A stretch of DNA of 50,188 bases from Verrucomicrobiales bacterium. Its GTDB lineage: Bacteria; Verrucomicrobiota; Verrucomicrobiia; Verrucomicrobiales; DEV007. The number at the start of each line of letters is the position of its first letter. Position 1 is the stretch's first letter. The DNA lies in NCBI GenBank assembly GCA_017991025.1, contig JAGNMT010000001.1:1-50188 (forward strand), given 5' to 3'. The notes below the pieces were generated by a model, which ran no database searches, was not told the origin of the DNA, and was given only the letters and a program-made list of their open reading frames with translations. A program made the position numbers and the translations under genes. Shown one piece after another: positions 7,511 through 42,377 of this stretch.

Positions 7511-7717
7511 ATGACTCGATCAGCGATATCAGGAACCGAGCTCACGGCTTGGCGGACAAGGATTGGCAAACCACGAAGGTGGCTCGCCGAGCGTCTCGGC
7601 GTTTCTCCCAAGACGGTCGAGTCATGGGATTACGGCACGCGGAACCCGGGCGGACCCGCGCTTCGGCTGTTCCGTCAGTTGATGGCCAGACACCTTCGGA
7701 AAGAGGCACACCAGTAA
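7511..7717 (+). CDS. Small XRE/Cro-like HTH regulator leading the Type I RM operon
   Basis: LAERLGVSPKTVESWDYGTRNP is a classic XRE HTH; stop 1 nt before hsdM. Confidence 0.8.
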   Translation: MTRSAISGTELTAWRTRIGKPRRWLAERLGVSPKTVESWDYGTRNPGGPALRLFRQLMARHLRKEAHQ

Positions 7718-7718
7718 A

Positions 7719-9212
7719 ATGGAATCCCTCACCCTTTCCCAACTCGAGTCCCATCTTTGGGAGGCCGCCAACATCCTCCGCGGGCCCGTTGATGCGGCCG
7801 ACTTCAAGACCTACGTCTTCCCTCTCCTTTTCTTCAAGCGACTCTCCGATGTCAATGACGAGGAGCACGCAGCGGCTCTGATCGAATTCGACGGCGATGA
7901 GGAGTCCGCGTTATTTTCTGAGAATTACAGCTTCCAGATTCCCGAGGGCTGCCATTGGCGGGACGTGAGGAAGGTCGCCACGAATGTCGGTCAGACGCTA
8001 CAGACCGCCTTGCGTGGAATCGAGCAGGCGAATCCCCACACCCTCTACGGCATCTTTGGAGACGCCCAGTGGACAAACAAGGACCGGCTCTCCGACGCGC
8101 TCCTGCGGGATCTCATCGAGCACTTCTCCCGGCTTTCGCTGGGCAACACCGACGCCAAGGCTGATGTGCTGGGGCAATCTTACGAATACCTCATCAAGAA
8201 ATTCGCCGACGCAACCAACAAGAAGGCTGGTGAGTTCTACACCCCGCGCTCGGTCGTGCGGTTGATGGTGGAGATCCTTGATCCACGGGCGGGCGAGTCC
8301 ATCTACGATCCCGCCTGCGGCACCGGCGGCATGTTGCTCGAGGCCATTCATCACGTGCAAGAGACCCGGGGCGATGTCCGCACGCTCTGGGGCAGGCTCT
8401 ACGGCCAGGAGAAAAACCTCACCACCTCCGCCATTGCCCGCATGAACCTCTTCCTGCATGGCGCGGCGGACTTCCAGATCGTGCGTGGCGACACCCTGCG
8501 CAGCCCCGCTTTCTTCCTCGGTGACAGCCTCGCGACCTTCGACTGTGTTATCGCCAATCCGCCCTTCTCGCTGGAGAAATGGGGCGACGAGGTCTGGTCC
8601 GCTGATCCCTACGGCCGCAACTTCGCCGGCATGCCGCCCGCCAAGACCGGCGACTTCGCCTGGGTGCAGCACATGATCAAATCCATGGCTCCGAAGACCG
8701 GGCGCATGGCAGTCGTCCTCCCGCACGGCGCCCTCTTCCGCATGGGCAAGGAGGGCGAGATCCGCAAGAAGCTTCTCGGCATGGACCTGCTCGAGGCCGT
8801 CATCGGGCTTGGCCCCAACCTCTTTTACGGCGCCGGCCTCGCCGCCTGCATCCTCATCTTCCGTCAGACGAAGGCCAAGGACCGTAGGGGTAAGGTGCTC
8901 ATCATCGATGCCTCGAAGGAGTTCAAAGCCGGTCGCGCCCAAAACGAACTGCTGCCCGAGCACGTCGAGCGCATCCACGGCTGGGTCCGAGATTATGTGG
9001 ATGTCGCGGGCGTTGCCCGCCTCGTCACCCTCGAAGAGATCGCCGCCAACGATCACAACCTCAACATTCCCCGGTATGTCGAGCCTGTAGTCACGAGCGA
9101 GGCGCTCTCCGTGGAAGAAGCGATGAAGCGCTTACAAGAGAGCGCTGACGCGGCGTTTGCGGCTGAGGAACGGCTGGCTTGTATCCTTAAACGGGAGGGC
9201 CTGCTAAGCTAA
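7719..9212 (+). CDS. hsdM: Type I RM methyltransferase M1 (NPPF, predicted m6A)
   Basis: HsdM N-terminus LWEAANILRG, GEFYTP, motif I YDPACGTGG, motif IV IANPPF, NLNIPRY. Confidence 0.96.
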   Translation: MESLTLSQLESHLWEAANILRGPVDAADFKTYVFPLLFFKRLSDVNDEEHAAALIEFDGDEESALFSENYSFQIPEGCHWRDVRKVATNVGQTLQTALRGIEQANPHTLYGIFGDAQWTNKDRLSDALLRDLIEHFSRLSLGNTDAKADVLGQSYEYLIKKFADATNKKAGEFYTPRSVVRLMVEILDPRAGESIYDPACGTGGMLLEAIHHVQETRGDVRTLWGRLYGQEKNLTTSAIARMNLFLHGAADFQIVRGDTLRSPAFFLGDSLATFDCVIANPPFSLEKWGDEVWSADPYGRNFAGMPPAKTGDFAWVQHMIKSMAPKTGRMAVVLPHGALFRMGKEGEIRKKLLGMDLLEAVIGLGPNLFYGAGLAACILIFRQTKAKDRRGKVLIIDASKEFKAGRAQNELLPEHVERIHGWVRDYVDVAGVARLVTLEEIAANDHNLNIPRYVEPVVTSEALSVEEAMKRLQESADAAFAAEERLACILKREGLLS

Positions 9213-9225
9213 GCATCTGACACTG

Positions 9226-10446
9226 ATGGAAACTTTGTTCACCAAGTATGACCTTAGTGGGACCTTGCGAAACCAGCCAAAGGGCATCAGAGACGAAATT
9301 GAAAAGCTGGATGAAAACTACCTACTAAATGTATCCGAGGACGATCTTGGAGCAGCGTTGGCACCCAAATTCTTATGGGATCCGCCCGTTCTTGGCGAAC
9401 CACAGATCGCGAGTCATAAAGAGGTTTTTCAGGAAGTTACTGAAATGGATGATCGCTTCTTGGCTCGTGGTGAGTCGTATCAAGTTCGCCTTACTCGAAT
9501 CATCGTCCATGTCCCATATGTCGGAGACACCTCGTTTTTCCGAATGCTGCCCCCTCAAAGCCACTGGACTCCGCCGAGAGCAAGCATTCAATCTAATTAC
9601 CTTGAAATCGTATATGACGTCGATCCGAAGAAGGGGATCCACATTCGCGAATCAATCGAAAAATTTGTGTCCGATGTCCGATATCACCTCGACCAGATAA
9701 CAAAGGTTTCGCATGAACACAATGCGACGCTACCCCAGCATATACGAACGGAGATCCAAGCGCGCAAAGCTAGAATTCTTGATCGGCGGGACTTGGTAGC
9801 AAGCATTGGCATCCCGCTGCGAAATCGGGATGACTCACCGAAAACCTATGCGGTGCCAAGCATACGAAAGAAGCCCGAAGTCAAACTTCCTCAGGCTTCT
9901 CACACCCCTTTTGTTCCCGAACCGGTCTTGGATGAAAAGGAGTATGAGAATATTTTGACGATCATGCGGAGCATGGTTCGCGTGATGGAAGCCAGTCCCC
10001 ACGCGTTCTCGACCATGAAAGAAGAGGATTTGAGACAGCATTTTCTCGTCCAGCTAAACGGTCAGTACCAAGGAGGAGCAACTGGCGAAACCTTCAACTA
10101 CGAAGGGAAGACCGACATCCTTATCCGCGAGAAAGAGAGGAACGTCTTCGTCGGGGAATGTAAATTCTGGAAAGGGCCGGAATCACTTAAAAGCACCATT
10201 GACCAATGCCTTGGATATCTCCACTGGCGTGATACCAAGGCGGCGATCGTAATGTTTAACAGGAACAAAGATTTCACCAATGTCCTTGCTCAAATTGAGC
10301 CCACCGCCAAAGTGCATCCAGCGTTCAAAAGGTTCGTGCGCCAAGCAGGAGAAACCGAGTGGAGGTTCATTTTCTCGAACAAGGATGACTCCAACCGTGA
10401 GGTCCACCTCGCCATTATGGCGTTTGATATTCCAAAAGCCCCATGA
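9226..10446 (+). CDS. Hypothetical protein with C-terminal PD-(D/E)xK-like nuclease domain (RM-embedded cargo)
   Basis: 406-aa ORF, lower GC than flanks, ATGA-coupled to hsdM2; motif EEDLR...GKTDILI...GECKFW...QCLGY. Confidence 0.7.
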   Translation: METLFTKYDLSGTLRNQPKGIRDEIEKLDENYLLNVSEDDLGAALAPKFLWDPPVLGEPQIASHKEVFQEVTEMDDRFLARGESYQVRLTRIIVHVPYVGDTSFFRMLPPQSHWTPPRASIQSNYLEIVYDVDPKKGIHIRESIEKFVSDVRYHLDQITKVSHEHNATLPQHIRTEIQARKARILDRRDLVASIGIPLRNRDDSPKTYAVPSIRKKPEVKLPQASHTPFVPEPVLDEKEYENILTIMRSMVRVMEASPHAFSTMKEEDLRQHFLVQLNGQYQGGATGETFNYEGKTDILIREKERNVFVGECKFWKGPESLKSTIDQCLGYLHWRDTKAAIVMFNRNKDFTNVLAQIEPTAKVHPAFKRFVRQAGETEWRFIFSNKDDSNREVHLAIMAFDIPKAP

Positions 10447-11930
10447 CCCGCATCACCCAACAAAACCTCGAATCCTACCTCTGGGGAGCCGCCGTGCTCC
10501 TTCGAGGCACGATCGATGCGGGGGACTACAAGCAGTTCATCTTCCCGCTCCTCTTCTACAAGCGGCTCTGCGACGTCTATGATGAGGAAACCCAGACCGC
10601 CCTTCGCGAGTCCGAAGGCGACATGCTCTTTGCCCTCTTCCCGGAGAACCACCGCTTCCAGATCCCGGCCGAAGCCCATTGGCGCGAGATCCGGAAGGTC
10701 AACCGCGATGTGGGCCGAGCCTTCCAGCAGGCCATGCGGGCCATTGAGACCGCGAACCCCGACAAGCTCTTTGGCATCTTTGGCGATGCGCAGTGGACAA
10801 ACAAGGACCGCCTGTCCGATGCCATGCTGCGCGACCTCATCGAGCACTTCTCCACGCTCGAACTCACCGTCGCCAACCTGCCGGAGGACGAGCTCGGCCA
10901 GGGCTACGAGTATCTCATCAAGAAGTTCGCCGACGACTCCGGCCACACTGCAGCCGAGTTTTACACGAACCGCACCGTCGTCCACCTCATGACCGAGATG
11001 CTCGACGTGCAGCCCGGTGAGTCCGTCTATGACCCCACCTGCGGCTCCGGCGGCATGCTGCTCTCCTGCATCGCCCACCTGCGGAATCAGAAGAAGGAAT
11101 GGCGGAACGTGAAGCTCTACGGTCAGGAGCGGAACCTCATGACCTCGTCCATCGCCCGGATGAACTGCTTCCTCCACGGCATCGAGGATTTCCGCATCGA
11201 GCGGGGCGACACCTTGGCCGAGCCGAAGCTCGTCGAAGGCGACCGGCTCCAGCGCTTCGATGTCGTGCTGGCCAATCCGCCCTACTCCATCAAGCAGTGG
11301 AACCGCGAAGCCTTCGCCGCCGACCCCTGGGGGCGCAATGTCTTCGGCGTCCCGCCGCAGGGCCGCGCCGACTACGCCTTCCAGCAGCACATCCTGCAAA
11401 GCCTCAAGCCCAAGACCGGCCGCTGCGCCGTCCTCTGGCCACACGGCGTTCTTTTCCGGAAAGAAGAGGCGGAGATGCGCCGCAAGCTCATCGAGGCCGA
11501 CCTCATCGAGTGCGTCCTCGGCCTCGGTCCGAACCTCTTCTACAACTCGCCCATGGAAGCCTGCGTCGTCGTCTGCCGCACGCAGAAACCCAAAGCCCGG
11601 CGCGGAAAAATTCTCTTCATCAACGCGGTGAACGAAGTCACCCGCGAACGTGCCCAGAGCTTCCTCACCGACGAGCACCTCCAGCGCGTCGTCCGCGCCT
11701 ATCAGGATTTCAAGGACGAGCCCGGCTTCACCCGCGTCGTGCCCATAGCGGAGATCCGGGCGAAGGAGGGCAATCTGAGCATCCCGCTGTATGTCGGCGG
11801 TGAAACGCAGGCGCAGACCGATGCCGCCGCCGAGACCGCTACCACCGCCCTGCCCGATGCGCTCGCGAAGTGGCTGGAAAGCTCGGATGCCCTCCGGGAC
11901 TCGCTCCAAACCCTCCTTTCTGGGAAATGA
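10443..11930 (+). CDS. hsdM: Type I RM methyltransferase M2 (NPPY, predicted m4C)
   Basis: Paralogue of M1 (shared GIFGDAQWTNKDRLSDA); motif I YDPTCGSGG, motif IV LANPPY. Confidence 0.95.
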   Translation: MTRITQQNLESYLWGAAVLLRGTIDAGDYKQFIFPLLFYKRLCDVYDEETQTALRESEGDMLFALFPENHRFQIPAEAHWREIRKVNRDVGRAFQQAMRAIETANPDKLFGIFGDAQWTNKDRLSDAMLRDLIEHFSTLELTVANLPEDELGQGYEYLIKKFADDSGHTAAEFYTNRTVVHLMTEMLDVQPGESVYDPTCGSGGMLLSCIAHLRNQKKEWRNVKLYGQERNLMTSSIARMNCFLHGIEDFRIERGDTLAEPKLVEGDRLQRFDVVLANPPYSIKQWNREAFAADPWGRNVFGVPPQGRADYAFQQHILQSLKPKTGRCAVLWPHGVLFRKEEAEMRRKLIEADLIECVLGLGPNLFYNSPMEACVVVCRTQKPKARRGKILFINAVNEVTRERAQSFLTDEHLQRVVRAYQDFKDEPGFTRVVPIAEIRAKEGNLSIPLYVGGETQAQTDAAAETATTALPDALAKWLESSDALRDSLQTLLSGK

Positions 11931-12013
11931 AGGTGTGACTTTCCAATCAAAGTGCGACTTCGACCTTCAAAAACATGAACAAGCCATGTGAATTGTTTTG
12001 ACCCATTCGGGCT

Positions 12014-12349
12014 ATGCAGGTATTCTTTCGCTCCAAGAAGCTCCAGAAGACGTGTTCCTCCGCAAGGGAGATTCAGAAAGTCTTCGGAGTGGCTCGGGCC
12101 AAGAAGCTCCAGCAACGGTTGCTGGAACTCAGTGCCGCAGACCATCTTGGACAAATCTCCCGACTCCCTCCCGCCCGATGCCATGAAATGACCGGTGACC
12201 GCCAAGGCCAGCTTAGTGTCGACCTCGACCAGCCCTACCGGTTGTTTTTTATCCCCGCCGACGATCCCGTTCCCCGCAGGGCGGACGGTGGCCTCGACTG
12301 GGACGCAGTAACTGCGATCGAGATCATCGAGATCGACGATCCCCATTGA
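12014..12349 (+). CDS. higB: HigB/RelE-like toxin
   Basis: Typical pattern LQK.C...AKKLQQRL...RCHEMTGDRQGQLSVDLDQPYRLFFIP; upstream of higA. Confidence 0.85.
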   Translation: MQVFFRSKKLQKTCSSAREIQKVFGVARAKKLQQRLLELSAADHLGQISRLPPARCHEMTGDRQGQLSVDLDQPYRLFFIPADDPVPRRADGGLDWDAVTAIEIIEIDDPH

Positions 12350-12363
12350 ATTTCCCGACCCCC

Positions 12364-13455
12364 ATGAAAGCCAAACGCCAGAATCCGTTCGAGCCGGACT
12401 ACGCCATCCCCCCGGGAGCCACCCTGGAGGAGACGATGGAGAGCCTTGGCATGACCCAGCGCGACCTTGCCAATCGCACTGGTCTGACCGTGCAAACCCT
12501 GAATCGCATCTTCAAGGGCGAGCAGCCCATCACCTACGAGACGGCCAACCGCCTCGAACTCGTCACCGGCACGCCGGCTGCCTTCTGGAACAATTTGGAG
12601 GCCCAATACCGCGAGCAGCTCGCCAAGCTAGACGAGAAACGGGAGCTGGAGGAACACCTCGACTGGCTCAAGGCGATTCCCACCCGGGAGTTGGTCCAGC
12701 GTGGTGCCATTCCTCCCTGCGAGGAAAAAGTCGTGCTCCTGCGGGAAGTGCTGCGCTTCTACAGCGTCAGCTCGACCGCTGCGTGGCGCGCCGTGTGGGA
12801 GGAGCCAGCCGCTGCGGCGCGTCGTTCGACCTTCTTCGCCTCCAGTCCAGGCCCCACGTCGGCATGGCTGCGGCTCGGCCAGATGCGGGCCCGCGAGATC
12901 GTCTGTCGATCCTATGACAAGAAGACCTTCGCGGCCAACCTCCAGACCATCCGTGGATTCACCACGCTGACACCCGAGCAGTTCGTTCCGAAGATGGAGC
13001 GTCTCTGCGCCGAGGCCGGGGTGGCCTGCGTTCTTGTGCCTGAGATCAAGGGAGCGCCCTGGAGCGGAGCCGCCGAGTGGCTCACGCCGACCAAGGCCAT
13101 GCTGCTCTTGAATCTGCGGGGGAAGGCCGAAGACAAATTCTGGTTCTCCTTCTTCCACGAGGCCAGCCACATCCTCAATGACAGCAAGAAGGAAACCTAT
13201 CTCGATGATGGCAAGCGCTACGAGGACGATCCCGCCGAAAAATGTGCCGACGAGTTTGCGGCGGAGATGCTGGTCCCGAGGAAGTTTGATCAGGTGATCC
13301 AGCGGGCAAAATCCGCCGAGGAGATCAAAGCCCTTGCGAAGCAGATTGGCGTCAGTGCCGGGATCGTGGCCGGGCGGTTTCAGCATCTCACTAAGAGGTG
13401 GTCGCATTTTAAGGGACTTATCCGCCGTTTGGAGTGGCAACAGGACGCCGTATGA
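12364..13455 (+). CDS. higA: HigA-family antitoxin, XRE HTH fused to ImmA/IrrE-like metallopeptidase
   Basis: IPPGATLEE...MTQRDLA HTH, TANRLE...FWNNLE; HExxH (FHEASH) and E..AD.FAAEML. Confidence 0.88.
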   Translation: MKAKRQNPFEPDYAIPPGATLEETMESLGMTQRDLANRTGLTVQTLNRIFKGEQPITYETANRLELVTGTPAAFWNNLEAQYREQLAKLDEKRELEEHLDWLKAIPTRELVQRGAIPPCEEKVVLLREVLRFYSVSSTAAWRAVWEEPAAAARRSTFFASSPGPTSAWLRLGQMRAREIVCRSYDKKTFAANLQTIRGFTTLTPEQFVPKMERLCAEAGVACVLVPEIKGAPWSGAAEWLTPTKAMLLLNLRGKAEDKFWFSFFHEASHILNDSKKETYLDDGKRYEDDPAEKCADEFAAEMLVPRKFDQVIQRAKSAEEIKALAKQIGVSAGIVAGRFQHLTKRWSHFKGLIRRLEWQQDAV

Positions 13456-13766
13456 GCGGACAAGGACTTTCGACTCGCATGGCTTTCACCGATTCAACCC
13501 TCTCACATCTCCGGCCCAACCCTCTTTGGTCGGAGTTGCCGGAATTCGACCGCAGCGGCTGGAAGCGCTTCCAGTTTGGCAAGATTGCCGAATGCATCGG
13601 GGAGCGGGTTGAGAAGCGGGATGAACCAGCAAAAGCGGTTATGCAGGCCCAGACCGACGCAGCGACTGAGTCGGTCATCACGGCGCTGCCGAATGCCCTG
13701 GCACATTGGGTTCAAAGTGCTGGATCCGTTCTGATACAGCTCAACACTCTCATCTCAGCCAAATGA
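13452..13766 (+). pseudogene. Chimeric remnant ORF: hsdS 5' fragment fused to hsdM2 3' fragment
   Basis: NPLWSELPEFDRSGWKRFQFGKIAECIGERVE matches HsdS NPAWASLPLFDRTGWKRMAFGDFAQSIGERAE; QAQTDAATESVITALPNALAHWVQS...TLISAK* matches HsdM2 QAQTDAAAETATTALPDALAKWLES...TLLSGK*. Confidence 0.88.
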
Positions 13767-14737
13767 ATCTTTCGAAGGAGCAAAACGACGCCGTGGGTTT
13801 CTATGACCAGCACTATTCTATCGTCTTCGATAGCGAACTGACCGTGGGCCGTCACATCAAGTTAGCGGACCAACAAGGCATAGAAGACCGCATTTGTCGG
13901 TTTTGCGGACTTGGAAAGCCAAACGTCACATTCCGTAAAGTTGCCCATGCGGTCCCCGAGTTCCTTGGAAACAAATCGCTCGTCTCCCAAAATGAGTGCG
14001 ATGCCTGTAATGAAAAACTGGCCGACGAATACGAGGATCACCTTTCCAAGTGGTTTGGTCCGATGCGCACTGTATCTCAAATAAGGGGTAAGGGCGGTGT
14101 GCCGACTTACAAGAACAAGGACATTCGTATCGAGATGGGCGAGAAGGGTCTCGAGATTGGAATCATTGGAGAGGAGCTGGAGTCATCTCTAAACTTTGAT
14201 GGCCCGTTCACCTTCAAGATTCCGGTTCCCACTCCTGCCCAAGCGCATGTGCCTTTGAGGGCTGCGAAAGCTCTGTTGAAAGTGGCTTGCTCGATTTGCC
14301 CGCCAGAGCTTTTAAGCGAATGCCAACCGACTATCGAATGGCTTATGTCCCGCGTGAATGCGAGCCTTTCGATGTTTCCCGTGCTGTTTGCGTTTACACC
14401 AGGGCCAAACCCTTATTGCGACGGTAAAGTGTTTTTGCTCCGACGGAAAAGCGATGCGAAGCTGCCTTTCCTTTGGTGTATCTTGGCCACAGCGAATTAT
14501 CGGTTTCAATTCTTCGTCCCGTTCTGCCCGTCAGATACATGGATCACTCCGGGTGAACCCGTCGAACTAACGCCTCCGCATTTTCCTGACGTTTTTGGCG
14601 ACAAGTGGCCACACGGAAAAACTGGATTCGGGGTCTTCGACTGGTCGGGAACCGAACCGGTGGTTCGAGAGCAGTCAGTGAGCTTCAATGTCGATAGCGT
14701 GGAGAAGGTGGACATCAAACCCGACTCTGAAAACTGA
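13763..14737 (+). CDS. HNH endonuclease-like protein (RM-embedded cargo)
   Basis: CRFCG...AHAVPEFLGN...ECDACN zinc/HNH motif; ATG at 13763 overlaps the upstream stop (ATGA); TGATG overlap with hsdS. Confidence 0.78.
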   Translation: MNLSKEQNDAVGFYDQHYSIVFDSELTVGRHIKLADQQGIEDRICRFCGLGKPNVTFRKVAHAVPEFLGNKSLVSQNECDACNEKLADEYEDHLSKWFGPMRTVSQIRGKGGVPTYKNKDIRIEMGEKGLEIGIIGEELESSLNFDGPFTFKIPVPTPAQAHVPLRAAKALLKVACSICPPELLSECQPTIEWLMSRVNASLSMFPVLFAFTPGPNPYCDGKVFLLRRKSDAKLPFLWCILATANYRFQFFVPFCPSDTWITPGEPVELTPPHFPDVFGDKWPHGKTGFGVFDWSGTEPVVREQSVSFNVDSVEKVDIKPDSEN

Positions 14738-15963
14738 TGACATCCGTTGCTCCATTAATTGGGTCCCTCAAGTCAAACCCCGCTTGGGCCTCCCTCCCGC
14801 TCTTCGACCGCACGGGCTGGAAGCGCATGGCCTTCGGTGACTTCGCTCAAAGCATCGGGGAACGGGCGGAGCCGAAGGATGCGCAGGAGGAGATTTATGT
14901 GGGGCTGGAGCATCTGGACCCGCAGTGCCTGCACATCCGGCGCTGGGGGAAGGGCAGCGATGTCATCGGTGGCAAGCTGCGCTTTCGGAAGGGCGACATC
15001 ATCTTTGGCAAACGCCGCGCCTATCAGCGGAAGCTGGCCGTGGCGGAGTTCGGCGGCATCTGCTCCGCACATGCCATGGTCATTCGGGCCAGGCCGGATA
15101 AGGTGCTGCCGGAGTTCCTGCCCTTCCTCATGATGAGCGACCGCTTCATGAACCGCGCCGTCGAGATTTCCGTGGGCTCGCTCTCACCCACCATAAACTG
15201 GACCACGCTCAAGCTGGAGACCTTCGACCTCCCGCCGCTCGACCAGCAGCGGCGCATCGCGGAAATCCTCTGGGCGGTGGATGCAAGCCTGGGTGCGAAT
15301 GATGGGCTTGAATTGTCACTCTTGGAATATCGGCAGGGACTCCTTGATTCAATCGCCCACGAGTATTCAGAGTCCCACGCACTTGCTCCTTTGGACTCTG
15401 CGATCGAGCAAGGCAGACCGATCTGTTATGGTATCCTAATGCCAGGTCTTGGAATTGAGAATGGAATCCCCGTCGTCAAAGTCCGCGACTTTCCTGACGG
15501 TTTTATTCGCGAAGGAGATTTGCTGCAAACTACCCCGGAAATTGAAGCTCCGTATAAGCGGTCGCGATTAAAGAGCGGAGACCTCATCATTTCAATTCGC
15601 GGCACAATCGGCAGAATGGCCGAAGTCCCACCGTCGCTTGATGGTGCAAACATTACACAGGATACGGCGAGACTCTCGATAGCTCCCGAACACAACCGTG
15701 GTTACCTGCGAGCTGTTTTAGAGTCGCGATTTGTTGAGAGACAAATTCAGTCCCGCATCACCGGTCTTGCCGTAAAAGGTATCAACATCGGTGAGTTGAG
15801 ACAAATTCAGATACCACTTCCATCGCGTCGTAAACAGGACGGAATCGCGGAAAAGCTCTCCACGATTTCCACAGCGCAGAGAGCAGCAGCGGCCAATTCG
15901 GCGCAGGTGCGCAGTGTTATAGCCGCCAGCATTGAAAACCTACTTGGAGGACATTCACGATGA
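14737..15963 (+). CDS. hsdS: Type I RM specificity subunit
   Basis: Two TRDs (KGDIIFGK...; SGDLIISIRGTIG) each followed by conserved helices (LPPLDQQRRIAEIL; IPLPSRRKQDGIAEKL). Confidence 0.93.
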   Translation: MTSVAPLIGSLKSNPAWASLPLFDRTGWKRMAFGDFAQSIGERAEPKDAQEEIYVGLEHLDPQCLHIRRWGKGSDVIGGKLRFRKGDIIFGKRRAYQRKLAVAEFGGICSAHAMVIRARPDKVLPEFLPFLMMSDRFMNRAVEISVGSLSPTINWTTLKLETFDLPPLDQQRRIAEILWAVDASLGANDGLELSLLEYRQGLLDSIAHEYSESHALAPLDSAIEQGRPICYGILMPGLGIENGIPVVKVRDFPDGFIREGDLLQTTPEIEAPYKRSRLKSGDLIISIRGTIGRMAEVPPSLDGANITQDTARLSIAPEHNRGYLRAVLESRFVERQIQSRITGLAVKGINIGELRQIQIPLPSRRKQDGIAEKLSTISTAQRAAAANSAQVRSVIAASIENLLGGHSR

Positions 15964-16001
15964 ATTTTACCAAATCCAACACCGTGGAGCTGACGCAATG
16001 A
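15960..16001 (+). pseudogene. 13-codon remnant of the hsdR 5' end
   Basis: Translates MNFTKSNTVELTQ*, versus the true HsdR start MGFNESNTVEQ; overlaps the hsdS stop and the next ATG (ATGA at both ends). Confidence 0.7.
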
Positions 16002-16909
16002 ATAAAAAGCTTTCACCAGCTTTTGTGGAATTGACCCAGGACGCCCTTCTCAAGGCGATCTGGTTCAAGGGGAGTTTGCGGATGTTCTTGATTCAGCATC
16101 AGATCTCAGAGTCAATACTGGCTCAATGGCAGGCCGACCAATCTAAGCGTGATTTTATTAACTGGCTCTGGCCAAGGCTCGTCAAAGACGAGAAGGGTCA
16201 GAACGCGATCTTGGCGATGGCGAGATCGCTCGCCGAAATGAGGCACTTCCCAGACCTCGAGCGAAAGGAAGATACGAAGGAACGGATACCCGAAGCAGTC
16301 GAAGCAATAAATCGACTCAGAGTTGTTGTCTCTGCGGTGAACGAGACAATAAGTGAAACAAAGGCAGCAGAGAAGCGAAGGCAAACTGCACGGGAACAGA
16401 CATCACAGCTACTAGCTGCGATGCAGTCGCTGGAAAAGCTTCAATCCGATCTGAACGCGCTTACTCCAAAAATCGGAACACAGCCAGGTGGATATGAATT
16501 TGAGAAATGGCTCTATGATCTCGCCATATTCTTCGAGCTTGATGCGAGGCCCGGCTACAAGGCCGCTGGTCGTCAAATTGACGGCGCAATTACAATCGAA
16601 GGAACGACATTCCTCCTCGAAGCAAAGCTGGTCAATGCTCCAATCGGATCACCCGACATCGACATCTTCATGGCTAAAATCGAATCGAAGGCAGACAACA
16701 CGATGGGTCTTTTTGTTTCCCTCTCCGGCTTTAATGAGGGCGCTAAGCTGGCTGCGTCAAAGCAACGCACGCCGATGTTGTTACTGGATTCGGGGCACAT
16801 CTTCACCCTGATAATGCGGGGGATCATGACTCTTCCTCAGGTAGTATCACGAATCAAACGTCACGCGCACCAAACCGGCTCCTCCTACCTCAGCGCCGCT
16901 GACTTTTGA
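15998..16909 (+). CDS. Mrr-like restriction endonuclease (RM-embedded cargo)
   Basis: C-terminal Mrr_cat-like pattern YEFEKWL...QIDG...LLEAK...GLFVSLSGF; helical N-terminus. Confidence 0.8.
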   Translation: MNKKLSPAFVELTQDALLKAIWFKGSLRMFLIQHQISESILAQWQADQSKRDFINWLWPRLVKDEKGQNAILAMARSLAEMRHFPDLERKEDTKERIPEAVEAINRLRVVVSAVNETISETKAAEKRRQTAREQTSQLLAAMQSLEKLQSDLNALTPKIGTQPGGYEFEKWLYDLAIFFELDARPGYKAAGRQIDGAITIEGTTFLLEAKLVNAPIGSPDIDIFMAKIESKADNTMGLFVSLSGFNEGAKLAASKQRTPMLLLDSGHIFTLIMRGIMTLPQVVSRIKRHAHQTGSSYLSAADF

Positions 16910-16911
16910 CC

Positions 16912-19902
16912 ATGGGCTTCAACGAATCCAATACCGTCGAGCAGATGATCCTCGACGCCGCAACCAGCCTCGGTAGCGGCTCAGGCTCATCCCTCGTTAG
17001 CGAAGGCCCACCTGCGGGCTGGAGTGGTTCCTTGGGCGAGGAATTCAAGCCTTCGCGCTGGACCTACGAGCCTGCCACAGTGCTACCCCGTCAACCCGGC
17101 GAAGTCATGGTGGAGCCCTGGGTGCGGGAGTCGCTCATCGCCCTGAATCCCGAGATCGCTGAACAACCCGATCGTGCAGACGAGGTGATCTACGCTCTCC
17201 GGGCCATCCTGCTCTCCGTGCAGGGCGACGGGCTGGTGCGGGCGAACGAGAACTTCATGGCCTGGCTGCGCGGGGAGAAGACGATGCCCTTTGGCCCGAA
17301 CGGCGAGCATGTGGCGGTGCGGCTGGTGGATTTCACCCAGCCCGCGAAGAACCGGCTGACGGTGACGAACCAGTGGACCTACCAGACGGGCACCGTGGTG
17401 AAGCGCTTCGACGTGGTCTTTCTGGTGAACGGACTGCCGCTGGTGATCGGCGAGGCGAAGACGCCAACGCGCAGCGCGGTGACGTGGTTCGACGGGGCGT
17501 ATCAGGTGAACGAGATCTACGAGAAGGAGATTCCGGCCATGTTTGTGCCGAACGTTTTCTCCTTTGCCACGGAAGGCCGCGTGCTGCGCTACGGCAGCAT
17601 CCGCATGCCCATCGACCTCTGGGGGCCGTGGCGCGATGAGGAGCATCAGGAGGAGGGCAACCTGGGCCATGTCCGCAAGACGGTGGAAAGTCTCCTGCGG
17701 CCCGGCGTGGTGCTGGACATCCTGCAGAACTTCACCCTCTTCGCCACGGACAAGAAGCACCGGCGCATCAAGGTGATCTGCCGTTACCAGCAATACGAGA
17801 CGACGAACAAGATGATCGCCCGCGTCGTGGCCGGGTATCCGAAGAAGGGCCTCATCTGGCATTTCCAGGGCAGCGGCAAGAGCCTGCTGATGGTCTTCGC
17901 CGCGCAGAAGTTGCGGATGCACCCGAGGCTGGGCAATCCCACGGTGCTGATCGTGGTGGACCGCATCGACCTCGACACCCAGATCAGCGCCACCTTCAAC
18001 GCGGCGGACGTGCCGAACATGGTGGGCGTGGGCGACCGGCAGGAACTGCAACGGCTGATCAATCAGGACGTGCGCAAGGTGCTGATCACGACCATCCACA
18101 AGTTCGGCGAGGCCACGGGCGAATGGAACGCCCGCAAGAACATCATCGTGATGGTGGACGAGGCGCACCGCACGCAGGAGGGCGACCTGGGCCGCAAGAT
18201 GCGCGAGGCGTTGCCGAATGCCTTTCTCTTTGGCCTGACCGGCACGCCTATCAACCGGGCCGACCGCAACACTTTCTGGGCCTTCGGCGCGGACGAGGAC
18301 AGCGCGGGCTACCTCAGCCGCTATTCGTTCCAGGATTCCATCCGCGACAAGGCGACGCTGCCGCTGCACTTCGAAGCGCCGACGGTGAAGCTCAAGATCG
18401 ACAAGGCGGCCATCGACGAGGCCTTCAAGCAGATCACCGACGACATGAGCGAGCAGGATCGCGACGATCTCGCGAAACGCGCCGCGAAGATGGCCGTGCT
18501 GGTGAAGAACCCGGAACGCGTGCGGGCCGTGGTGGAGCACATTGTGCAGCATTACCAGACCAAGGTGGAGCCGAACGGCTTCAAAGCGCAGGTGGTGTGC
18601 TTCGACCGCGAATGCTGCGTGCTCTACAAGCAGGTGATGGACGAGATCATCGGCCCCGAGGCCAGCGCCGTCGTCATGAGCTCGGGGCAGAAGGATCCGC
18701 CGGGATGGAGCGTCCACCTCCGCGACAAGGACGCCGAGGAGAAACTGCTCGACCGCTTCCGCGATCCAGTCGATCCGCTGAAGTTTGTCATCGTGACGAG
18801 CAAGCTGCTCACCGGCTTCGACGCGCCGATCCTCCAGGCCATGTACCTCGACAAGCCGATGAGGGATCACAATCTCCTCCAGGCCATCTGCCGGGTGAAC
18901 CGCACCTACGGCCAGATGAAGACCCACGGTCTCATCGTGGATTACATCGGCATCTTCGACGACGTGGCCCAGGCCCTGGACTTCGACGAGAAGGCGGTGC
19001 AGCAGGTCGTGAGCAACATCGACGAGCTGCGCAAGGCCCTGCCAGTGCAGGTGCAGAAGTGCCTGGCCTTCTTTCCCGGTGTGGACCGCAGCGTGGGAGG
19101 CTACGAAGGCCTCATGGAAGCCCAGCAATGCTTGCCGGACAACGCCACCCGCGACAAGTTCGCTGGCGAATACAGCGTGCTCGGCACGATCTGGGAGGCC
19201 CTTTCCCCCGACCCCTGTCTCGGAGCCTATGCGCCGGACTACAAATGGCTGACTCAGGTCTATGAATCGGTGAAGCCGGTGAGCGGCAACGGAAAACTGC
19301 TCTGGCATCGGCTCGGCGCCAAGACCATCGAACTCATCAACGAGAACGTCCACGTCGAAGCGGTGCGCGACGACATTGAGGCCCTCGTCCTCGACGCTGA
19401 CATTCTCGACGGCATCCTCGGCGACGCCAACCCTTCGAAGAAGGCCAAGGAAGTCGAGATCAAACTGATCGCCCGGCTCCGCAAGCACGCCGGCAACCCC
19501 AAATTCACCGAACTCGGCGAACGACTCGAAAAGGTGCGAGAGCGCCACGAACAGGGGCTGCTCAACAGCCTGGAATTCCTCAAGGCAATCCTCGAGATCG
19601 CCAAGGAAGTCGTCGAGGCCGAGAACCGGGTCGATCCCGAGGAGGAACAGGACCGCGCCATCGCCGCGCTCACGGAGCTGTTCAACGAAGTGAAAAACAA
19701 AAGCACGCACGTCATCGTCGAGCGTCTCGTCGCCGACATCGATGCGATCGTGCGGCAGATTCGCTTCGACGGTTGGCAGGCCACCTCCGCCGGGGAGCGC
19801 GAGGTGCAGAAGGCGCTACGCTCAACTTTGAGGAAGTTCCAGCTTCACACTGATCAGGAACTCTTTGAGAAGGCCTACGGATACATTCGGCAGTATTATT
19901 GA
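16912..19902 (+). CDS. hsdR: Type I RM restriction subunit
   Basis: Nuclease FDVVFLVNGLPLVIGEAK, Walker A WHFQGSGKS, VDEAHR, LTGTP, LLTGFDAP, LLQAICRVNR. Confidence 0.96.
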   Translation: MGFNESNTVEQMILDAATSLGSGSGSSLVSEGPPAGWSGSLGEEFKPSRWTYEPATVLPRQPGEVMVEPWVRESLIALNPEIAEQPDRADEVIYALRAILLSVQGDGLVRANENFMAWLRGEKTMPFGPNGEHVAVRLVDFTQPAKNRLTVTNQWTYQTGTVVKRFDVVFLVNGLPLVIGEAKTPTRSAVTWFDGAYQVNEIYEKEIPAMFVPNVFSFATEGRVLRYGSIRMPIDLWGPWRDEEHQEEGNLGHVRKTVESLLRPGVVLDILQNFTLFATDKKHRRIKVICRYQQYETTNKMIARVVAGYPKKGLIWHFQGSGKSLLMVFAAQKLRMHPRLGNPTVLIVVDRIDLDTQISATFNAADVPNMVGVGDRQELQRLINQDVRKVLITTIHKFGEATGEWNARKNIIVMVDEAHRTQEGDLGRKMREALPNAFLFGLTGTPINRADRNTFWAFGADEDSAGYLSRYSFQDSIRDKATLPLHFEAPTVKLKIDKAAIDEAFKQITDDMSEQDRDDLAKRAAKMAVLVKNPERVRAVVEHIVQHYQTKVEPNGFKAQVVCFDRECCVLYKQVMDEIIGPEASAVVMSSGQKDPPGWSVHLRDKDAEEKLLDRFRDPVDPLKFVIVTSKLLTGFDAPILQAMYLDKPMRDHNLLQAICRVNRTYGQMKTHGLIVDYIGIFDDVAQALDFDEKAVQQVVSNIDELRKALPVQVQKCLAFFPGVDRSVGGYEGLMEAQQCLPDNATRDKFAGEYSVLGTIWEALSPDPCLGAYAPDYKWLTQVYESVKPVSGNGKLLWHRLGAKTIELINENVHVEAVRDDIEALVLDADILDGILGDANPSKKAKEVEIKLIARLRKHAGNPKFTELGERLEKVRERHEQGLLNSLEFLKAILEIAKEVVEAENRVDPEEEQDRAIAALTELFNEVKNKSTHVIVERLVADIDAIVRQIRFDGWQATSAGEREVQKALRSTLRKFQLHTDQELFEKAYGYIRQYY

Positions 19903-19939
19903 GCAGCAGCTCGTCAGAGAAAAACTCGAAAGAGATCCA

Positions 19940-20872
19940 ATGCCCTCACACTGCGACATTAACGAACGATGCATCAGTCAGCTTCGCAATGTAGGCCTCG
20001 AGGGATATTTCGCAGTAATTGGTTCAGGGCCTTCAAGTCGCTTTATAGCGAGCATTGAGAAACTAGAGGAAAAGCTGGGATCGCTCGTAGGGATTGAAAA
20101 AAAGCAGGAACAACATTTCTGGGACTACACCCAGGACGTTTTCGATGCGCTGCAAGGAAACACCAATCAATATTTTTCTGCAATTCGAGAAACCTACGGC
20201 GATTCCTTCCAATGGACGGCACGAATTTATGAACAGATCGCCTTTCTTCCAGTAAAGGGCTTTGCAACCCTAAATTATGATGATCAACTACCACATGCCT
20301 TTCGGCTACGCCATGAAGATCGCGAAGCTAGACGCTTTTACCTTTATCCGCATCCCGCTGTAAATTTTCCGCGGTCACTTAGCGACCTACTCAGCGATCA
20401 ACCACAGCTCATAGCACTTCACGGTTACGCTGACGAAAACAACCCCACTTGGGAGAGGGAGATAATCCTTAAGCGGTCGGATTACAACAGGTATTACTCT
20501 GGCCATGGCGCACCCCTCGCGTCATGGTGGCGCGAAATCCTCCTCAACATCCCCTGTCTTTTCATTGGAACAAAGCTTTACGAACCGGGAATCAAACTGG
20601 TTATTAACCAGTTCGACGACCGTGACCTTGAGCGGCTTCGATCACAAAAACACGTTCACCTTGTCGGAGTGAACAAATCCTCGGAGATCGATACTTCAAA
20701 AACCTTCGGTCTAATTGACAGAGTGTCTTACAAAAAGCTCGATAGAGATCACAAAGGGCTTTGCAAAATCCTTTCAGACCTGAACGGACTACCTCCTTAC
20801 TCAGTGCATCAATCTCTCCCGACACCGTCCTCAATTAATCCTGGCTTCGATCCGAATGCTTCTATCTTATGA
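19940..20872 (+). CDS. SIR2-like domain protein (putative NADase effector)
   Basis: VIGSGPS, TLNYDD, LHG, ILKRSDY, LFIG.KL.EP.I follow the SIR2_2 motif order; start uncertain (ORF open from 19865). Confidence 0.8.
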   Translation: MPSHCDINERCISQLRNVGLEGYFAVIGSGPSSRFIASIEKLEEKLGSLVGIEKKQEQHFWDYTQDVFDALQGNTNQYFSAIRETYGDSFQWTARIYEQIAFLPVKGFATLNYDDQLPHAFRLRHEDREARRFYLYPHPAVNFPRSLSDLLSDQPQLIALHGYADENNPTWEREIILKRSDYNRYYSGHGAPLASWWREILLNIPCLFIGTKLYEPGIKLVINQFDDRDLERLRSQKHVHLVGVNKSSEIDTSKTFGLIDRVSYKKLDRDHKGLCKILSDLNGLPPYSVHQSLPTPSSINPGFDPNASIL

Positions 20873-23835
20873 GCCTGCGTGAAAAATTGAACAGAATCCG
20901 ACAGGAGGCCCACTCTCTTGATTCATGCCCTCAACCTGATGTCCTCGTCGATTTGATTGAAGAAGGCAACCCATGGGACCTTATGTTCTTCCGGGAGCTT
21001 CGTGATCCGAGGTGGCTTCCAATCCTCCAGCGGGCGGGCTTCTTTGATCGCTTACCCACAACGATTATCGACCTTGAAGGACGCGAAACCTATCCCTATA
21101 GCTTGCCACTTACCGGACTCTACAACATCGCAGAAACTGCGCCCGTTGACGTAACCCGCACATTGTTGCGTCTAAAACTTACGCCGAACCCTGTCGTCCT
21201 CGATCAAGTTCTCCGAGTAATTGCGAAGATCCAAGATCAAATGTCCATACATTTAGTCTCGGCCATTGTCTGCGTGATTGCCTCAGCCCCCAGATTCTCG
21301 AACATCCTTTGGCTCGAAGAGGTCTTAAAGAAGTGGATCGAGACGAACAACCACGCCACCGCGTTAGATGCCCTAAATAATCTCTTTCTTGCAACGGCGG
21401 GATTATCCCCCAAGGAGCTGTCTCGAGTAGATGAGTCCAGATTACTGGAAATCGATAGTGAGGTTTTTTCAAAGGTTTGCGAGGTCCTCCCGCACGAATC
21501 GGCCGAAGTCGCTTTTCGAGCATTACAAAAGTGGGCTGCATCCCAGAGGACCGACGATGACCGAGACACGTTATCGATTCCACAGAATCAACTCGAGGAG
21601 TGGGGGCCGGATTTTGATAACCCGGGGACCTTCTGGCTTAGGGATTTCACTTCTAGATCCGCGAATGAATTCTCGATCGAGACCACCCTGTCCCATCGTC
21701 TTTACGCGGCAGTCGATCTGGTTTTTAGCCGTGGTCTCGACGTAGAACGAGTCGATCGAATGCTCCGTTCTGATCCTTGGCATTTGTTCCGCCGTCTCCG
21801 CTGGAAGATATATTCCGTCCACCCGGCAGCCTCCCTCGATTGGGCCCGGGAAGAGGTTCTTATTAGGGCCGTCTATTTTAACCGTATCGATCACAAGCAC
21901 GAGAGCGAGTTTGCGGAAATGGTGGAGCGTTTCTCAGAAGATTTTGGGACGGCCTTTCTCAATGAATCTCAGGTTGAGATAATTTGTGAAACGATTCATT
22001 CTGGCCCACTCACTGAGACCGGAACATTGGATGAAGACGAAAAGTATCGAAAGCGATTTTTCCGAGATCAGTTGGCTCCATTTGCGAACCTTTTCGATAC
22101 ACCGCAACTTGAGTTTTATAAGAATCTGATTGAGAAGGCGGGACAAGCGCCCGAATACGATGGTTCATGGAGTGGTGGTACGGTCGAGTTTCGAGAGATC
22201 CGCGAGGCATCCCCGTTTACGGAAGCGCAGCTGTCAGAAATGGAGATCTCAGTCTTGTGGGGCACTCTGAATGACTGGAAGCCGTCTCAACAGCAGAGAA
22301 ATAGGAGTGAATGGTGGAGGGAAGAGTCGGAGCGGGCGCTCGCCACAACCTTCTCAGATTTGGTGTTCAACAATCCCGCTAGATTCTCTTTGGAATCGCA
22401 GTGGTGGACAAACATCAGCCGTCCTTCTGTTTTAGAGCGGATCATTGATCGGGCGACAGATCGGATAGGAAAATCTGAATCGAGCGAGTCCAATGCCACT
22501 CAGTTCTTCGACCATGGAATAATATTTCCCATCTGCCTGAAGCTAATGGAATGCGCGGAAAAATCGCGAGATGAGGCATTGACTAAAGAGGGAAGCAAAA
22601 ATGAACTTTTGAGAGTCTGGGATTGGCCTCGCCTGGCCGTCGCGCGATTTATTTCAACGGCTTTGGAGTCAAAGGAGTTCAAATGGCAGGACTACGAGCG
22701 AGAGTTGAAGTCTCTGCTTCCCGGGTTGCTCGACTGCCGACACCGATCAACACAAACTGCTGGCCGGTCATGGCTTCACGACTGGTACACGACTGCGATT
22801 AATTCGGCATCCGGCATTGCATTCGAAGCGCTTCTTAGGCTAACTCATCGACAGAAGGAATCTGGTGCATCCCTAGAACCATCCTCGTGGGCGCTTGATA
22901 TGGCGAATACGTCTTTGAAACAGAAAGTAGAGTGCGAGGAAATTTATGCGGTTGCCGGAGCACGGCTTCGACTCATGGCATATCTTTTTCCTGATATGGT
23001 GAAAGAGGTAACAAGATTAGGATTTCGACAGGATTCTAAGGATTTGGAATTCATCTTAATCGTATCACATATGTGTTACGACCAACCAAGTCCCCAACTT
23101 TTGGAGCGTGTTCCGGGTCTCCTTGAAGAATCAATGCGCTGTCTTCGAGATTTCTCAGAAATCGATGAAAAGACGGATCATCGAACCCGCGATTTCGGAT
23201 TTCGATTCGGCTATCATTTATCGTGGTATTTTTGGAATAACTTTCTACCTGAGTCAGATGCGGATCGTCTTTTGGATGAGTATTTTTCTACAGCAGATGA
23301 ATCCAGTCGAAGGAAACTGATCAGTCAGATTGCTAGTATGTTTCGGGATGTCGCGAGTGCGGAGGAACAACCCCTTGTCTCCCGCGTCATGAAGCTCGGG
23401 CGCAGGAGATTTTCGGCGATTCAAGAAGCCGTTGAAGCAAGCCCCGAACTGGCTTCCGGATTCAGTGGAGAACTAGAGGAGTTTCTTGACTGGGTGGAAT
23501 GTGACTGCTTTCCGTTCCAGTGGCGAATCGATCTCGCACTCGATGCGACGCGCTATCTCGCGAGAGCTCCCCAGGCATTTTTGCTGTTTGATAAACTTGA
23601 AGAGTTCTCCAGGGACCCTGATAAGCTGCCAAGCGTGCTAGAACTTCTAAGTAAGCTAGTTTACCTCGATTCGAATGAAATGCGGTGGGCCTACAAAGAT
23701 GGGGTGGTTAAAGAGATGCTCGTGCGAGCATATGCGTCCATGAATTCAAGATGCCGCAATCTTGGTGAAAGAATTCAGGAGAAACTCTTAATGGAGGGCT
23801 TCTTTGACTACCTTGATATCGACCCAGGCAGTTGA
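20869..23835 (+). CDS. Large (988 aa) predicted alpha-helical hypothetical protein coupled to the SIR2 gene
   Basis: Long open frame, ATGA overlap with the SIR2 gene, Trp/Leu-rich helical pattern, no P-loop seen. Confidence 0.8.
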   Translation: MSLREKLNRIRQEAHSLDSCPQPDVLVDLIEEGNPWDLMFFRELRDPRWLPILQRAGFFDRLPTTIIDLEGRETYPYSLPLTGLYNIAETAPVDVTRTLLRLKLTPNPVVLDQVLRVIAKIQDQMSIHLVSAIVCVIASAPRFSNILWLEEVLKKWIETNNHATALDALNNLFLATAGLSPKELSRVDESRLLEIDSEVFSKVCEVLPHESAEVAFRALQKWAASQRTDDDRDTLSIPQNQLEEWGPDFDNPGTFWLRDFTSRSANEFSIETTLSHRLYAAVDLVFSRGLDVERVDRMLRSDPWHLFRRLRWKIYSVHPAASLDWAREEVLIRAVYFNRIDHKHESEFAEMVERFSEDFGTAFLNESQVEIICETIHSGPLTETGTLDEDEKYRKRFFRDQLAPFANLFDTPQLEFYKNLIEKAGQAPEYDGSWSGGTVEFREIREASPFTEAQLSEMEISVLWGTLNDWKPSQQQRNRSEWWREESERALATTFSDLVFNNPARFSLESQWWTNISRPSVLERIIDRATDRIGKSESSESNATQFFDHGIIFPICLKLMECAEKSRDEALTKEGSKNELLRVWDWPRLAVARFISTALESKEFKWQDYERELKSLLPGLLDCRHRSTQTAGRSWLHDWYTTAINSASGIAFEALLRLTHRQKESGASLEPSSWALDMANTSLKQKVECEEIYAVAGARLRLMAYLFPDMVKEVTRLGFRQDSKDLEFILIVSHMCYDQPSPQLLERVPGLLEESMRCLRDFSEIDEKTDHRTRDFGFRFGYHLSWYFWNNFLPESDADRLLDEYFSTADESSRRKLISQIASMFRDVASAEEQPLVSRVMKLGRRRFSAIQEAVEASPELASGFSGELEEFLDWVECDCFPFQWRIDLALDATRYLARAPQAFLLFDKLEEFSRDPDKLPSVLELLSKLVYLDSNEMRWAYKDGVVKEMLVRAYASMNSRCRNLGERIQEKLLMEGFFDYLDIDPGS

Positions 23836-27040: not shown

Positions 27041-27045
27041 GGAAC

Positions 27046-29365: not shown

Positions 29366-29372
29366 GTTCTCG

Positions 29373-42300: not shown

Positions 42301-42377
42301 CGGTGGGATTCTAGCACCGATCGCGGCACTTTTTTCACTTTTTGAAAGGGGAGGGTCCACGGCAGTCCCACCCCCTG

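What the first reader, a model, noticed from the sequence alone, without database searches (positions are those of the whole stretch)
9226..23835. Every slot of the hsd operon holds translationally coupled cargo
Seen: order M1-[406 aa]-M2-[higBA]-scar-[HNH]-S-scar-[Mrr-like]-R-[SIR2]-[988 aa], all on one strand and mostly joined by ATGA/TGATG overlaps. Most cargo is visibly more AT-rich than the hsd genes. Established: Type I RM loci can host backup effectors such as PrrC that respond to RM inhibition. Inference: the hsd genes act as conserved recombination anchors for a multi-slot defence hotspot, and some cargo may guard the RM complex.
Basis: partly seen in the sequence, partly recalled or inferred. 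Interest (0 to 1): 0.75.

Follow-up and report, generated by a model that had tools for sequence, protein, structure and literature searches.

The report
Restriction operon with swappable defence slots
This DNA-restriction operon carries different extra genes, likely anti-phage ones, in each gap between its four core genes, and the short leftover gene ends between them likely mark where versions were spliced together and would keep ribosomes reading through to the passengers.

Summary
Observation confirmed, with corrections. The core is a known two-methyltransferase type I system (M1 NPPF, M2 NPPY, S, R; closest solved relative PacII). Only 7 of 12 junctions overlap, higBA is not AT-rich, and SIR2 plus the 988-aa gene lie after hsdR, not in a slot.

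In 152 homologous loci the three slots vary widely; 12 of 74 complete loci fill all three. Of 46 recurring cargo families, 44 keep to one slot (shuffled mean 10). Embedding in type I operons is published (Payne 2024; Morgan 2016 for this subfamily).

Added here:
- An empty slot 2 is an in-frame M2-S fusion that switches repeatedly on the M2 tree.
- A copy of the hsdR start follows hsdS in 17 of 31 filled slot-3 loci, and its frame ends at the cargo start in 15 of 24 cases (other frames 2 and 2).
- SIR2 plus the 988-aa solenoid looks like a split DSR1.

Best model: RecA-type swapping between hsd flanks plus one-sided joins, with in-frame scars favoured. Guarding of the RM complex is unsupported for this window's cargo. 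The scan noted similar scars on other DNA before.

The parts
7511..7717 (+). small HTH protein directly before M1, likely a regulator
   Evidence: weak HTH Pfam hits below cut-off; homolog before M1 in 1 of 160 fetched loci
7719..9212 (+). HsdM1 (NPPF motif; m6A methyltransferase by family)
   Evidence: N6_Mtase + HsdM_N; best PDB match 7vru_A, E 2e-175
9226..10446 (+). slot 1 cargo: 406-aa PDC-S54 candidate with a C-terminal PD-(D/E)xK-like motif
   Evidence: PADLOC PDC-S54 E 8e-147; motif read from sequence; stop overlaps M2 start
10443..11930 (+). HsdM2 (NPPY motif; m4C methyltransferase by family)
   Evidence: best PDB match 7vru_B, E 8e-198
12014..12349 (+). slot 2 cargo A: HigB-like toxin (weak call)
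   Evidence: no Pfam/NCBIfam hit; 6 of 8 weak PDB matches (E 0.3-0.7) are HigB/killer proteins; lies before higA
12364..13455 (+). slot 2 cargo A: HigA HTH fused to an ImmA/IrrE peptidase (PD-lambda-2B-like), HExxH present
   Evidence: HTH_3 + Peptidase_M78, TIGR02607 above cut-off, PD-Lambda-2_B E 1e-29
13452..13766 (+). scar: hsdS start fused in frame to hsdM2 end, 104 codons, ATGA overlap at both ends
13763..14737 (+). slot 2 cargo B: 324-aa HNH endonuclease
   Evidence: HNH_5 E 1.5e-8; 63% homolog directly before hsdS in L033
14737..15963 (+). HsdS; first recognition domain close to that of PacII
   Evidence: 7vru_C E 1.6e-60
15960..16001 (+). scar: 13-codon copy of the hsdR start, ATGA overlap at both ends
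   Evidence: 27.6 bits against background maximum 8.5; same length and overlaps in L016 and L182
15998..16909 (+). slot 3 cargo: 303-aa protein with a C-terminal Mrr-type nuclease domain
   Evidence: Mrr_cat E 7e-6; slot 3 in 9 of 9 loci that have it
16912..19902 (+). HsdR, nuclease, Walker A and DEAH motifs intact
   Evidence: TIGR00348 above cut-off
19940..20872 (+). SIR2-like protein, likely NADase effector of a split DSR1-like pair
   Evidence: SIR2_2 E 4e-11; a SIR2 gene precedes the solenoid homolog in L175 and L176
20869..23835 (+). 988-aa alpha-solenoid related to the C-terminal part of DSR1, likely sensor
   Evidence: Dsr1 model hit in 32 of 42 aligned members, best E 4e-48; model pLDDT 86, nearly all helix

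Best explanation
This is a two-methyltransferase type I restriction operon whose three inter-gene gaps hold variable passenger genes, likely anti-phage, that are likely exchanged by host recombination using the conserved hsd genes as anchors. Shown: core identity, slot variability, slot fidelity, scars, M2-S fusion when slot 2 is empty. Inferred step 1: a cargo enters a gap once, usually taking over the ATGA junction, and then moves between loci by crossovers in the flanking hsd genes, so it stays in its slot. Inferred step 2: when only the downstream crossover is homologous and the upstream one is a chance join, the recipient's old gene start is left behind and cargo stacks up; this gives the hsdR-start copy and the hsdS::hsdM2 chimera. 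Inferred step 3: joins that leave an open mini-frame from the upstream stop to the cargo start are favoured, because they would keep the cargo translated. The cargo likely act as independent defences that share the operon's expression, not as guards of the complex.
For: Slots: slot 1 82 filled/50 empty; slot 2 59 filled/30 fused/5 empty; slot 3 31 filled/45 empty. 44 of 46 recurring families in one slot (5,000 shuffles: mean 10, max 18). 195 of 198 slot ORFs of 200 aa or more are co-oriented; 201 of 212 have lower GC3 than their M2. 34 of 85 cargo representatives hit defence models (36 PADLOC hits minus an HsdS fragment and an IstB), e.g. AbiE, Gabija, Hachiman, BrxU, pAgo, DRT. Loci sharing a cargo show excess identity in the last 40 codons of M2 (+4.4 points, p 0.002) and last 27 of M1 (+3.2, p 0.006). 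The window's closest hsdR genes (L082, L012, L002; 89-92%) have slot 3 empty, while Mrr carriers are 73-83% identical. hsdR-start copies follow hsdS in 17 of 31 filled slot-3 loci and vary from about 11 to 112 codons, which does not fit one fixed cut site. In-frame coupling 15 of 24 against 2 and 2; by family 6 of 10 against 0 and 0. Fused/split state needs 18 changes on the M2 tree, at least 8 forced by strong branches.
Against: All comparative; no exchange event was caught between near-identical strains (one search showed no slot-skipping contig among the rows shown). Of 20 flank windows tested only the M2 3' end survives Bonferroni; none near the hsdR start is significant. Slot fidelity can also come from inheritance plus loss. 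Kin are not independent, so p values overstate. Loci were the best 80 hits of two collections. 12 of 31 filled slot-3 loci have no detectable hsdR copy, and slot 1 shows an hsdM2-start scar in only one locus (L145). 49 of 85 cargo representatives have no PADLOC hit at E 1e-10. Translation of the scars was not measured.
Confidence: 0.7

Rival explanations
1. Tandem duplication then deletion: two whole hsd loci with different cargo come to lie side by side, and deletions remove the redundant core genes while the cargo is kept. The scars are the deletion ends.
For: L002 and L008 carry an hsdM2 end, cargo and an hsdS start upstream of an intact M1; L005 carries an hsdS start there. This gives the same S::M2 chimera as in the window.
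Against: hsdR remnants are short (about 11-112 of about 1,000 codons) and sit right after hsdS, whereas random deletions should often leave long pseudogenes. It does not explain the in-frame excess without added selection.
Confidence: 0.2
2. Site-specific cassette array: the conserved hsdR start acts as an attachment site for a recombinase, as attC does in integrons, and slot-3 cargo is inserted and excised as circles.
For: Several loci alternate hsdR-start copies with cargo (L007, L010, L054, L058, L146). The motif is well conserved in DNA and holds a 7-bp inverted repeat around 9 bp in the window's hsdR (I22 arm). A tyrosine integrase lies at 238-1542.
Against: Scar lengths vary widely. Synonymous conservation at the hsdR start (+0.08) is matched by internal windows. 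The window's integrase found no match in 160 loci. Slots 1 and 2 lack the motif.
Confidence: 0.07
3. Guard model: the cargo is held inactive by HsdMSR and fires when Ocr, ArdA or Stp-type inhibitors hit the complex, as PrrC does.
For: Ocr and ArdA inhibit PacII, this family's prototype (PMC9613975, passages). Relatives hold ABC-ATPase cargo (PDC-S06, Gabija, AriA-like). The Mrr-like family is slot-3-only in 9 loci and lies between S- and R-like genes of another type I family in L185.
Against: None of the window's cargo resembles PrrC/RloC. 0 of 5 genomic homologs of the 406-aa gene have hsd matches within 1.5 kb; SIR2/solenoid pairs lie away from hsd genes in 2 of 2 other genomes; an Mrr homolog stands alone in L184.
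Confidence: 0.15
4. Neutral sink: the gaps simply tolerate insertions, and the cargo and scars are hitch-hiking debris with no selected function.
For: A few slots hold transposase or integrase genes and fragments (L116, L045). The S::M2 scar has drifted at the protein level.
Against: Strong co-orientation, intact frames, overlap junctions (41 of 71 first cargo starts in slot 1), defence enrichment and in-frame scars.
Confidence: 0.08

Closest known systems
m4C/m6A two-methyltransferase type I RM systems (PacII, DbaKI; PMC5100572, PMC9613975; PDB 7vru)
   Same: M1 NPPF, M2 NPPY, order M1-M2-S-R; the paper notes interspersed ORFs (6 of 10 between the M genes, 2 M2-S, 1 S-R) and one M2-S fusion.
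   Different: All three gaps are filled here. In the passages read, the paper does not treat the ORFs as slot-specific cassettes, mention scars, or link fusion to slot content.
Defence genes embedded in type I RM, BREX, DISARM and Hma (Payne et al., 10.1101/2024.01.29.577857); DarTG2 between hsdS and hsdR (PMC12255303)
   Same: Co-oriented defence cargo between core genes; the 406-aa gene is their candidate PDC-S54; the hsdS-hsdR gap is called a potential recombination hotspot in PMC12255303.
   Different: No mechanism, slot fidelity or scar analysis in the parts read (parts 1-4 of 5; passages).
PrrC in EcoprrI and Ronin (PMC12707154, 10.1101/2023.04.06.535777; passages)
   Same: Effector gene inside or beside an hsd locus.
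   Different: Those effectors depend on Hsd proteins; this window's cargo has unrelated domains and mostly occurs without hsd genes.
DSR1 defence-associated sirtuin (10.1101/2021.12.14.472415; passages)
   Same: SIR2 domain plus a long helical region that matches a Dsr1 model.
   Different: Two genes here, one protein in DSR1; other relatives fuse the same solenoid to PIN or pPIWI-nuclease-like domains.
PD-lambda-2 (10.1101/2022.05.12.491691; passages)
   Same: HigB-like toxin plus HigA-HTH fused to a peptidase.
   Different: The third component (P4-antitoxin-like) was not detected after higA.
Homology-facilitated illegitimate recombination (recalled; only a reference title seen) and integron arrays (recalled)
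   Same: A one-sided homologous anchor adds foreign DNA; arrays of cargo separated by repeated sites.
   Different: Here the repeated sites are decayed ends of the operon's own genes, and no linked integrase was found.

Membership tests
m4C/m6A type I RM | two related MTase genes, upstream NPPF and downstream NPPY | tested here: met
   window sequence; NPPY in 152 of 152 M2 regions, NPPF in 123 of 132 M1 regions, none found in the other 9
m4C/m6A type I RM | order M1-M2-S-R, each subunit closest to its PacII counterpart | tested here: met
m4C/m6A type I RM | m4C on one strand and m6A on the other | not testable with these tools
   needs methylome sequencing
RM-embedded defence genes | variable, co-oriented genes between hsd genes, including known systems | tested here: met
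RM-embedded defence genes | anti-phage activity of this window's cargo | not testable with these tools
   domain matches only
PrrC-type guard | ABC-ATPase/anticodon nuclease effector | tested here: not met
   no such hit in the 7 cargo proteins
PrrC-type guard | found almost only inside hsd loci | tested here: inconclusive
   not met for 406 aa, HNH and SIR2/988; Mrr-like is hsd-linked in 3 of 5 genomic matches
DSR1 | SIR2 domain and DSR1-type C-terminal region | tested here: met
DSR1 | single polypeptide | tested here: not met
   separate genes in the window, L175 and L176; no SIR2 fusion among 42 long homologs
DSR1 | NAD+ depletion on infection | not testable with these tools
   needs an assay
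PD-lambda-2 | three genes A, B, C | tested here: not met
   only a B model hit; A is a weak call, C not detected
Integron-type cassette array | linked integrase and a fixed recombination site | tested here: not met
   variable scar lengths; window integrase not matched in 160 loci

The most novel reading that the evidence does not exclude
The leftover hsdR starts are working parts, not debris. Each is both a portable homology arm, which lets a slot-3 cassette move between loci whatever hsdS allele lies upstream, and a ribosome relay that couples the cargo to hsdS. Together with an M2-S gene that is split whenever slot 2 is loaded and re-fused when it is emptied, the operon is an integrase-free, self-expressing cassette array for defence genes, shared across bacterial phyla and methanogens.
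Probability: 0.3. Interest if true: 0.7.

Novelty: new variant of a known kind. Interest (0 to 1): 0.45.

Why it matters
Payne et al. state that the significance of embedding remains to be explored. This family gives measurable handles on how it happens: slot fidelity, short co-moving flanks, in-frame scars and a fusion that tracks slot content. Each can be tested with small constructs. The slots are also a source of untested defence candidates (49 of 85 representatives without a PADLOC hit), and the split DSR1-like pair with exchangeable effectors is a ready candidate for a phage screen.

Tried and rejected
Exact-repeat search found only M1/M2 paralogy and chance repeats; the scars are too diverged for it. 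The promoter/terminator scan was at chance level (5 against 5.9; 16 against 19.2). DNA-level constraint at the hsdR start was not beyond internal windows. No co-transfer signal at the hsdR 5' end, and only one window at the M2 5' end (p 0.014). The single-sequence fold of the 406-aa protein failed (pLDDT 35) and was not used. The fold search of the 988-aa model gave generic HEAT/importin solenoids (TM 0.25 or less); the profile search of PDB sequences gave nothing significant. The complex prediction of SIR2 with solenoid residues 1-640 gave no verdict. No fused SIR2-solenoid form was found (weak evidence). SIR2 and Mrr had no plasmid matches. Contigs of four runs showed no slot-swapped strain among the rows shown (33 joints not shown). 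The open S::M2 frame alone is weak evidence: it would stay open in 8-31% of neutral simulations. Literature searches (hsdR truncated/remnant/fragment, illegitimate recombination, translational coupling, M-S fusion, integron-like) listed no paper describing such scars or relays, judged from titles and abstract starts; one search listed none on a split DSR1. The library lacks most subscription papers, and supplements of the bioRxiv preprints (PDC tables) could not be seen; they may cover PDC-S54 contexts.
Full report
Observation. Seven of 12 junctions overlap; the rest have gaps of 2-83 nt. Five of seven cargo genes have GC3 in the lowest 3% of the genome's long ORFs, higB and higA do not, and M1, M2 and R are at the top. 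Contigs of runs X14 and X17 bridge the scars almost without differences. The closest hsdM2 relatives are mostly Verrucomicrobiota, so the host is probably one (inference).

The core. M1 has NPPF and M2 has NPPY. M1, M2 and S each match their counterpart in the PacII structure 7vru best. Morgan et al. (PMC5100572, passages) define this subfamily, show that NPPF makes m6A and NPPY m4C, and already note interspersed ORFs and one M2-S fusion. HsdR motifs are intact.

The cargo. Slot 1 holds PADLOC candidate PDC-S54 (E 8e-147). Slot 2 holds a HigB-like gene (weak call) with a HigA-peptidase fusion resembling two of the three PD-lambda-2 genes, then an HNH nuclease. Slot 3 holds an Mrr-type nuclease. 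After hsdR lie SIR2 and a 988-aa alpha-solenoid. Of 42 aligned solenoid members, 32 hit a Dsr1 model. In both other genomes with the free-standing solenoid a SIR2 gene precedes it, away from hsd genes. Long relatives carry PIN or pPIWI-nuclease-like N-termini instead (6 of 20 long proteins scanned had such hits); two PIN-fused ones lie downstream of the hsdS of another type I family. I read this pair as a split DSR1-like system beside the operon, not in a slot.

Homologous loci. I fetched 160 loci with M2 (best 80 of each of two collections) and kept 152 including the window after removing 9 near-duplicates. A slot counts as filled at 120 nt or more. Slot 1: 82 filled, 50 empty. Slot 2: 59 filled, 30 fused, 5 empty. 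Slot 3: 31 filled, 45 empty. Of 74 loci with all three scored, 12 have all filled and 14 none. Of 46 cargo families seen in two or more loci, 44 occur in one slot only (shuffles: mean 10, max 18); one exception is a loosely chained cluster. I scanned 85 of 91 listed representatives (two already covered by the window's genes and four fragments left out). 36 hit PADLOC at E 1e-10, 34 after removing an HsdS fragment and an IstB. Co-orientation is 195 of 198. Payne et al. (10.1101/2024.01.29.577857, parts 1-4 of 5 read) describe embedding in type I RM in general and leave its significance open.

Slot 2 and the M2-S fusion. Among loci whose M2 is at least 72% identical to the window's, slot 2 is filled in 55, fused in 30 and 'empty' in one, which reads like a frameshifted fusion. 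Of the 30, 29 have hsdS in frame; one is an M2::R deletion. On a quick IQ-TREE tree of 125 M2 proteins (first 445 residues) the fused state needs 18 changes, at least 8 forced by strong branches; it is still more clustered than shuffles (mean 27). A few labels are uncertain because of frameshifts (L070, L103, L127). Loading slot 2 therefore goes with splitting the gene, repeatedly.

Scars. A 27-nt matrix from 58 hsdR starts never exceeded 8.5 bits in 1.93 Mb of minus strand, yet found extra copies in many loci: within 70 nt of the hsdS end in 17 of 31 filled slot-3 loci, anywhere in the slot in 19. Some loci alternate copies and cargo. hsdS-start scars lie in slot 2 of L031, L034, L149 and the window, hsdM2-end scars in L031, L080, L135 and the window (the window's just above background), and such pieces lie upstream of M1 in L002, L005 and L008. 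The window's chimera is about 65-70% identical to the best intact alleles and shows more amino-acid changes than silent ones, so it is old or from distant donors. After removing 4 frameshifted true starts, 30 hsdR copies remain, 24 with a cargo downstream. In 15 the hsdR frame stops within -8 to +6 nt of a cargo start, against 2 and 2 for the other frames; by cargo family 6 of 10 against 0 and 0 (an earlier, looser count gave 18 of 34 against 6 and 6). Before the Mrr-like gene the scar is 13 codons with ATGA at both ends in the window, L016 and the separately found L182, while its letters differ.

Flank signal. Pairs of loci sharing the first cargo have excess identity in the last 40 codons of M2 (p 0.002) and last 27 of M1 (p 0.006), not deeper; nothing significant appears at the hsdR start. 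Only the first survives correction for 20 windows.

Mechanism. Best reading (0.7): host recombination swaps cargo between conserved flanks; one-sided events stack cargo and leave gene ends; in-frame joins are favoured. Exchange of defence islands by homologous recombination after transduction is shown in S. aureus (PMC12829572, passages). The one-sided mechanism is recalled knowledge; I saw only a reference title. Rivals: tandem loci with deletion (0.2), guarding (0.15, not exclusive), neutral sink (0.08), site-specific array (0.07). Guarding is plausible for the family, since Ocr and ArdA inhibit PacII (PMC9613975, passages), but this window's cargo lacks PrrC-type domains and mostly occurs without hsd genes; one plasmid homolog of the 406-aa gene does lie downstream of an hsdS and higBA.

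Novelty. The system and embedding are known. The scan's own notes describe similar scars in other genomes (unchecked on their DNA). Look-ups for the fusion switch and for the 988-aa protein returned nothing. Not found in my literature searches (listings and abstract starts only): slot fidelity, in-frame scar relays, the fusion switch, split DSR1. Verdict: new variant of a known kind, interest 0.45.

Noticed in passing
window 3463-7172: McrB-like AAA protein and McrC directly upstream of the hsd operon; not matched in the 160 related loci.
   Followed up: partly
window 238-1542: Tyrosine integrase near the contig start, possibly the island's integrase.
   Followed up: partly
window 23856-24740 (-): 294-aa ORF with only the GmrSD N-terminal domain, convergent with the 988-aa gene; possibly truncated.
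   Followed up: no
window 25043-32819: Type I Zorya (ZorA-D); ZorD carries a C-terminal Mrr domain.
   Followed up: no
window 34858-42360 (-): HIT/PLD/helicase/S24 fusion of 1236 aa, a phosphatase-ADP-ribosylglycohydrolase fusion and a WYL regulator.
   Followed up: no
window 43217-46881: Lamassu (LmuA, LmuC, LmuB) system.
   Followed up: no
L002 4960-6518, L008 3603-5953, L005 6786-6848: Slot-2 remnants (hsdM2 end, cargo, hsdS start) stranded upstream of an intact M1.
   Followed up: partly
L075 12703-13377: An hsdR-start copy fused in frame to a 224-aa ORF; it looks like a transposase by recall, with no Pfam hit at 1e-5.
   Followed up: no
L016 9103-12481: UG9 reverse transcriptase plus PolA-like gene in slot 2.
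   Followed up: no
L037 9992-13297: 1101-aa M2-S fusion with about 200 extra residues between M2 and S.
   Followed up: no
L010 14735-15330: Three hsdR-start copies in a row before a PDC-M23 pair.
   Followed up: partly
P0003, P0014-P0021, P0071, P0075: The DSR1-like solenoid is fused to about 200-aa PIN or pPIWI-nuclease-like effectors in about 42 long relatives: a modular sensor-effector family.
   Followed up: partly
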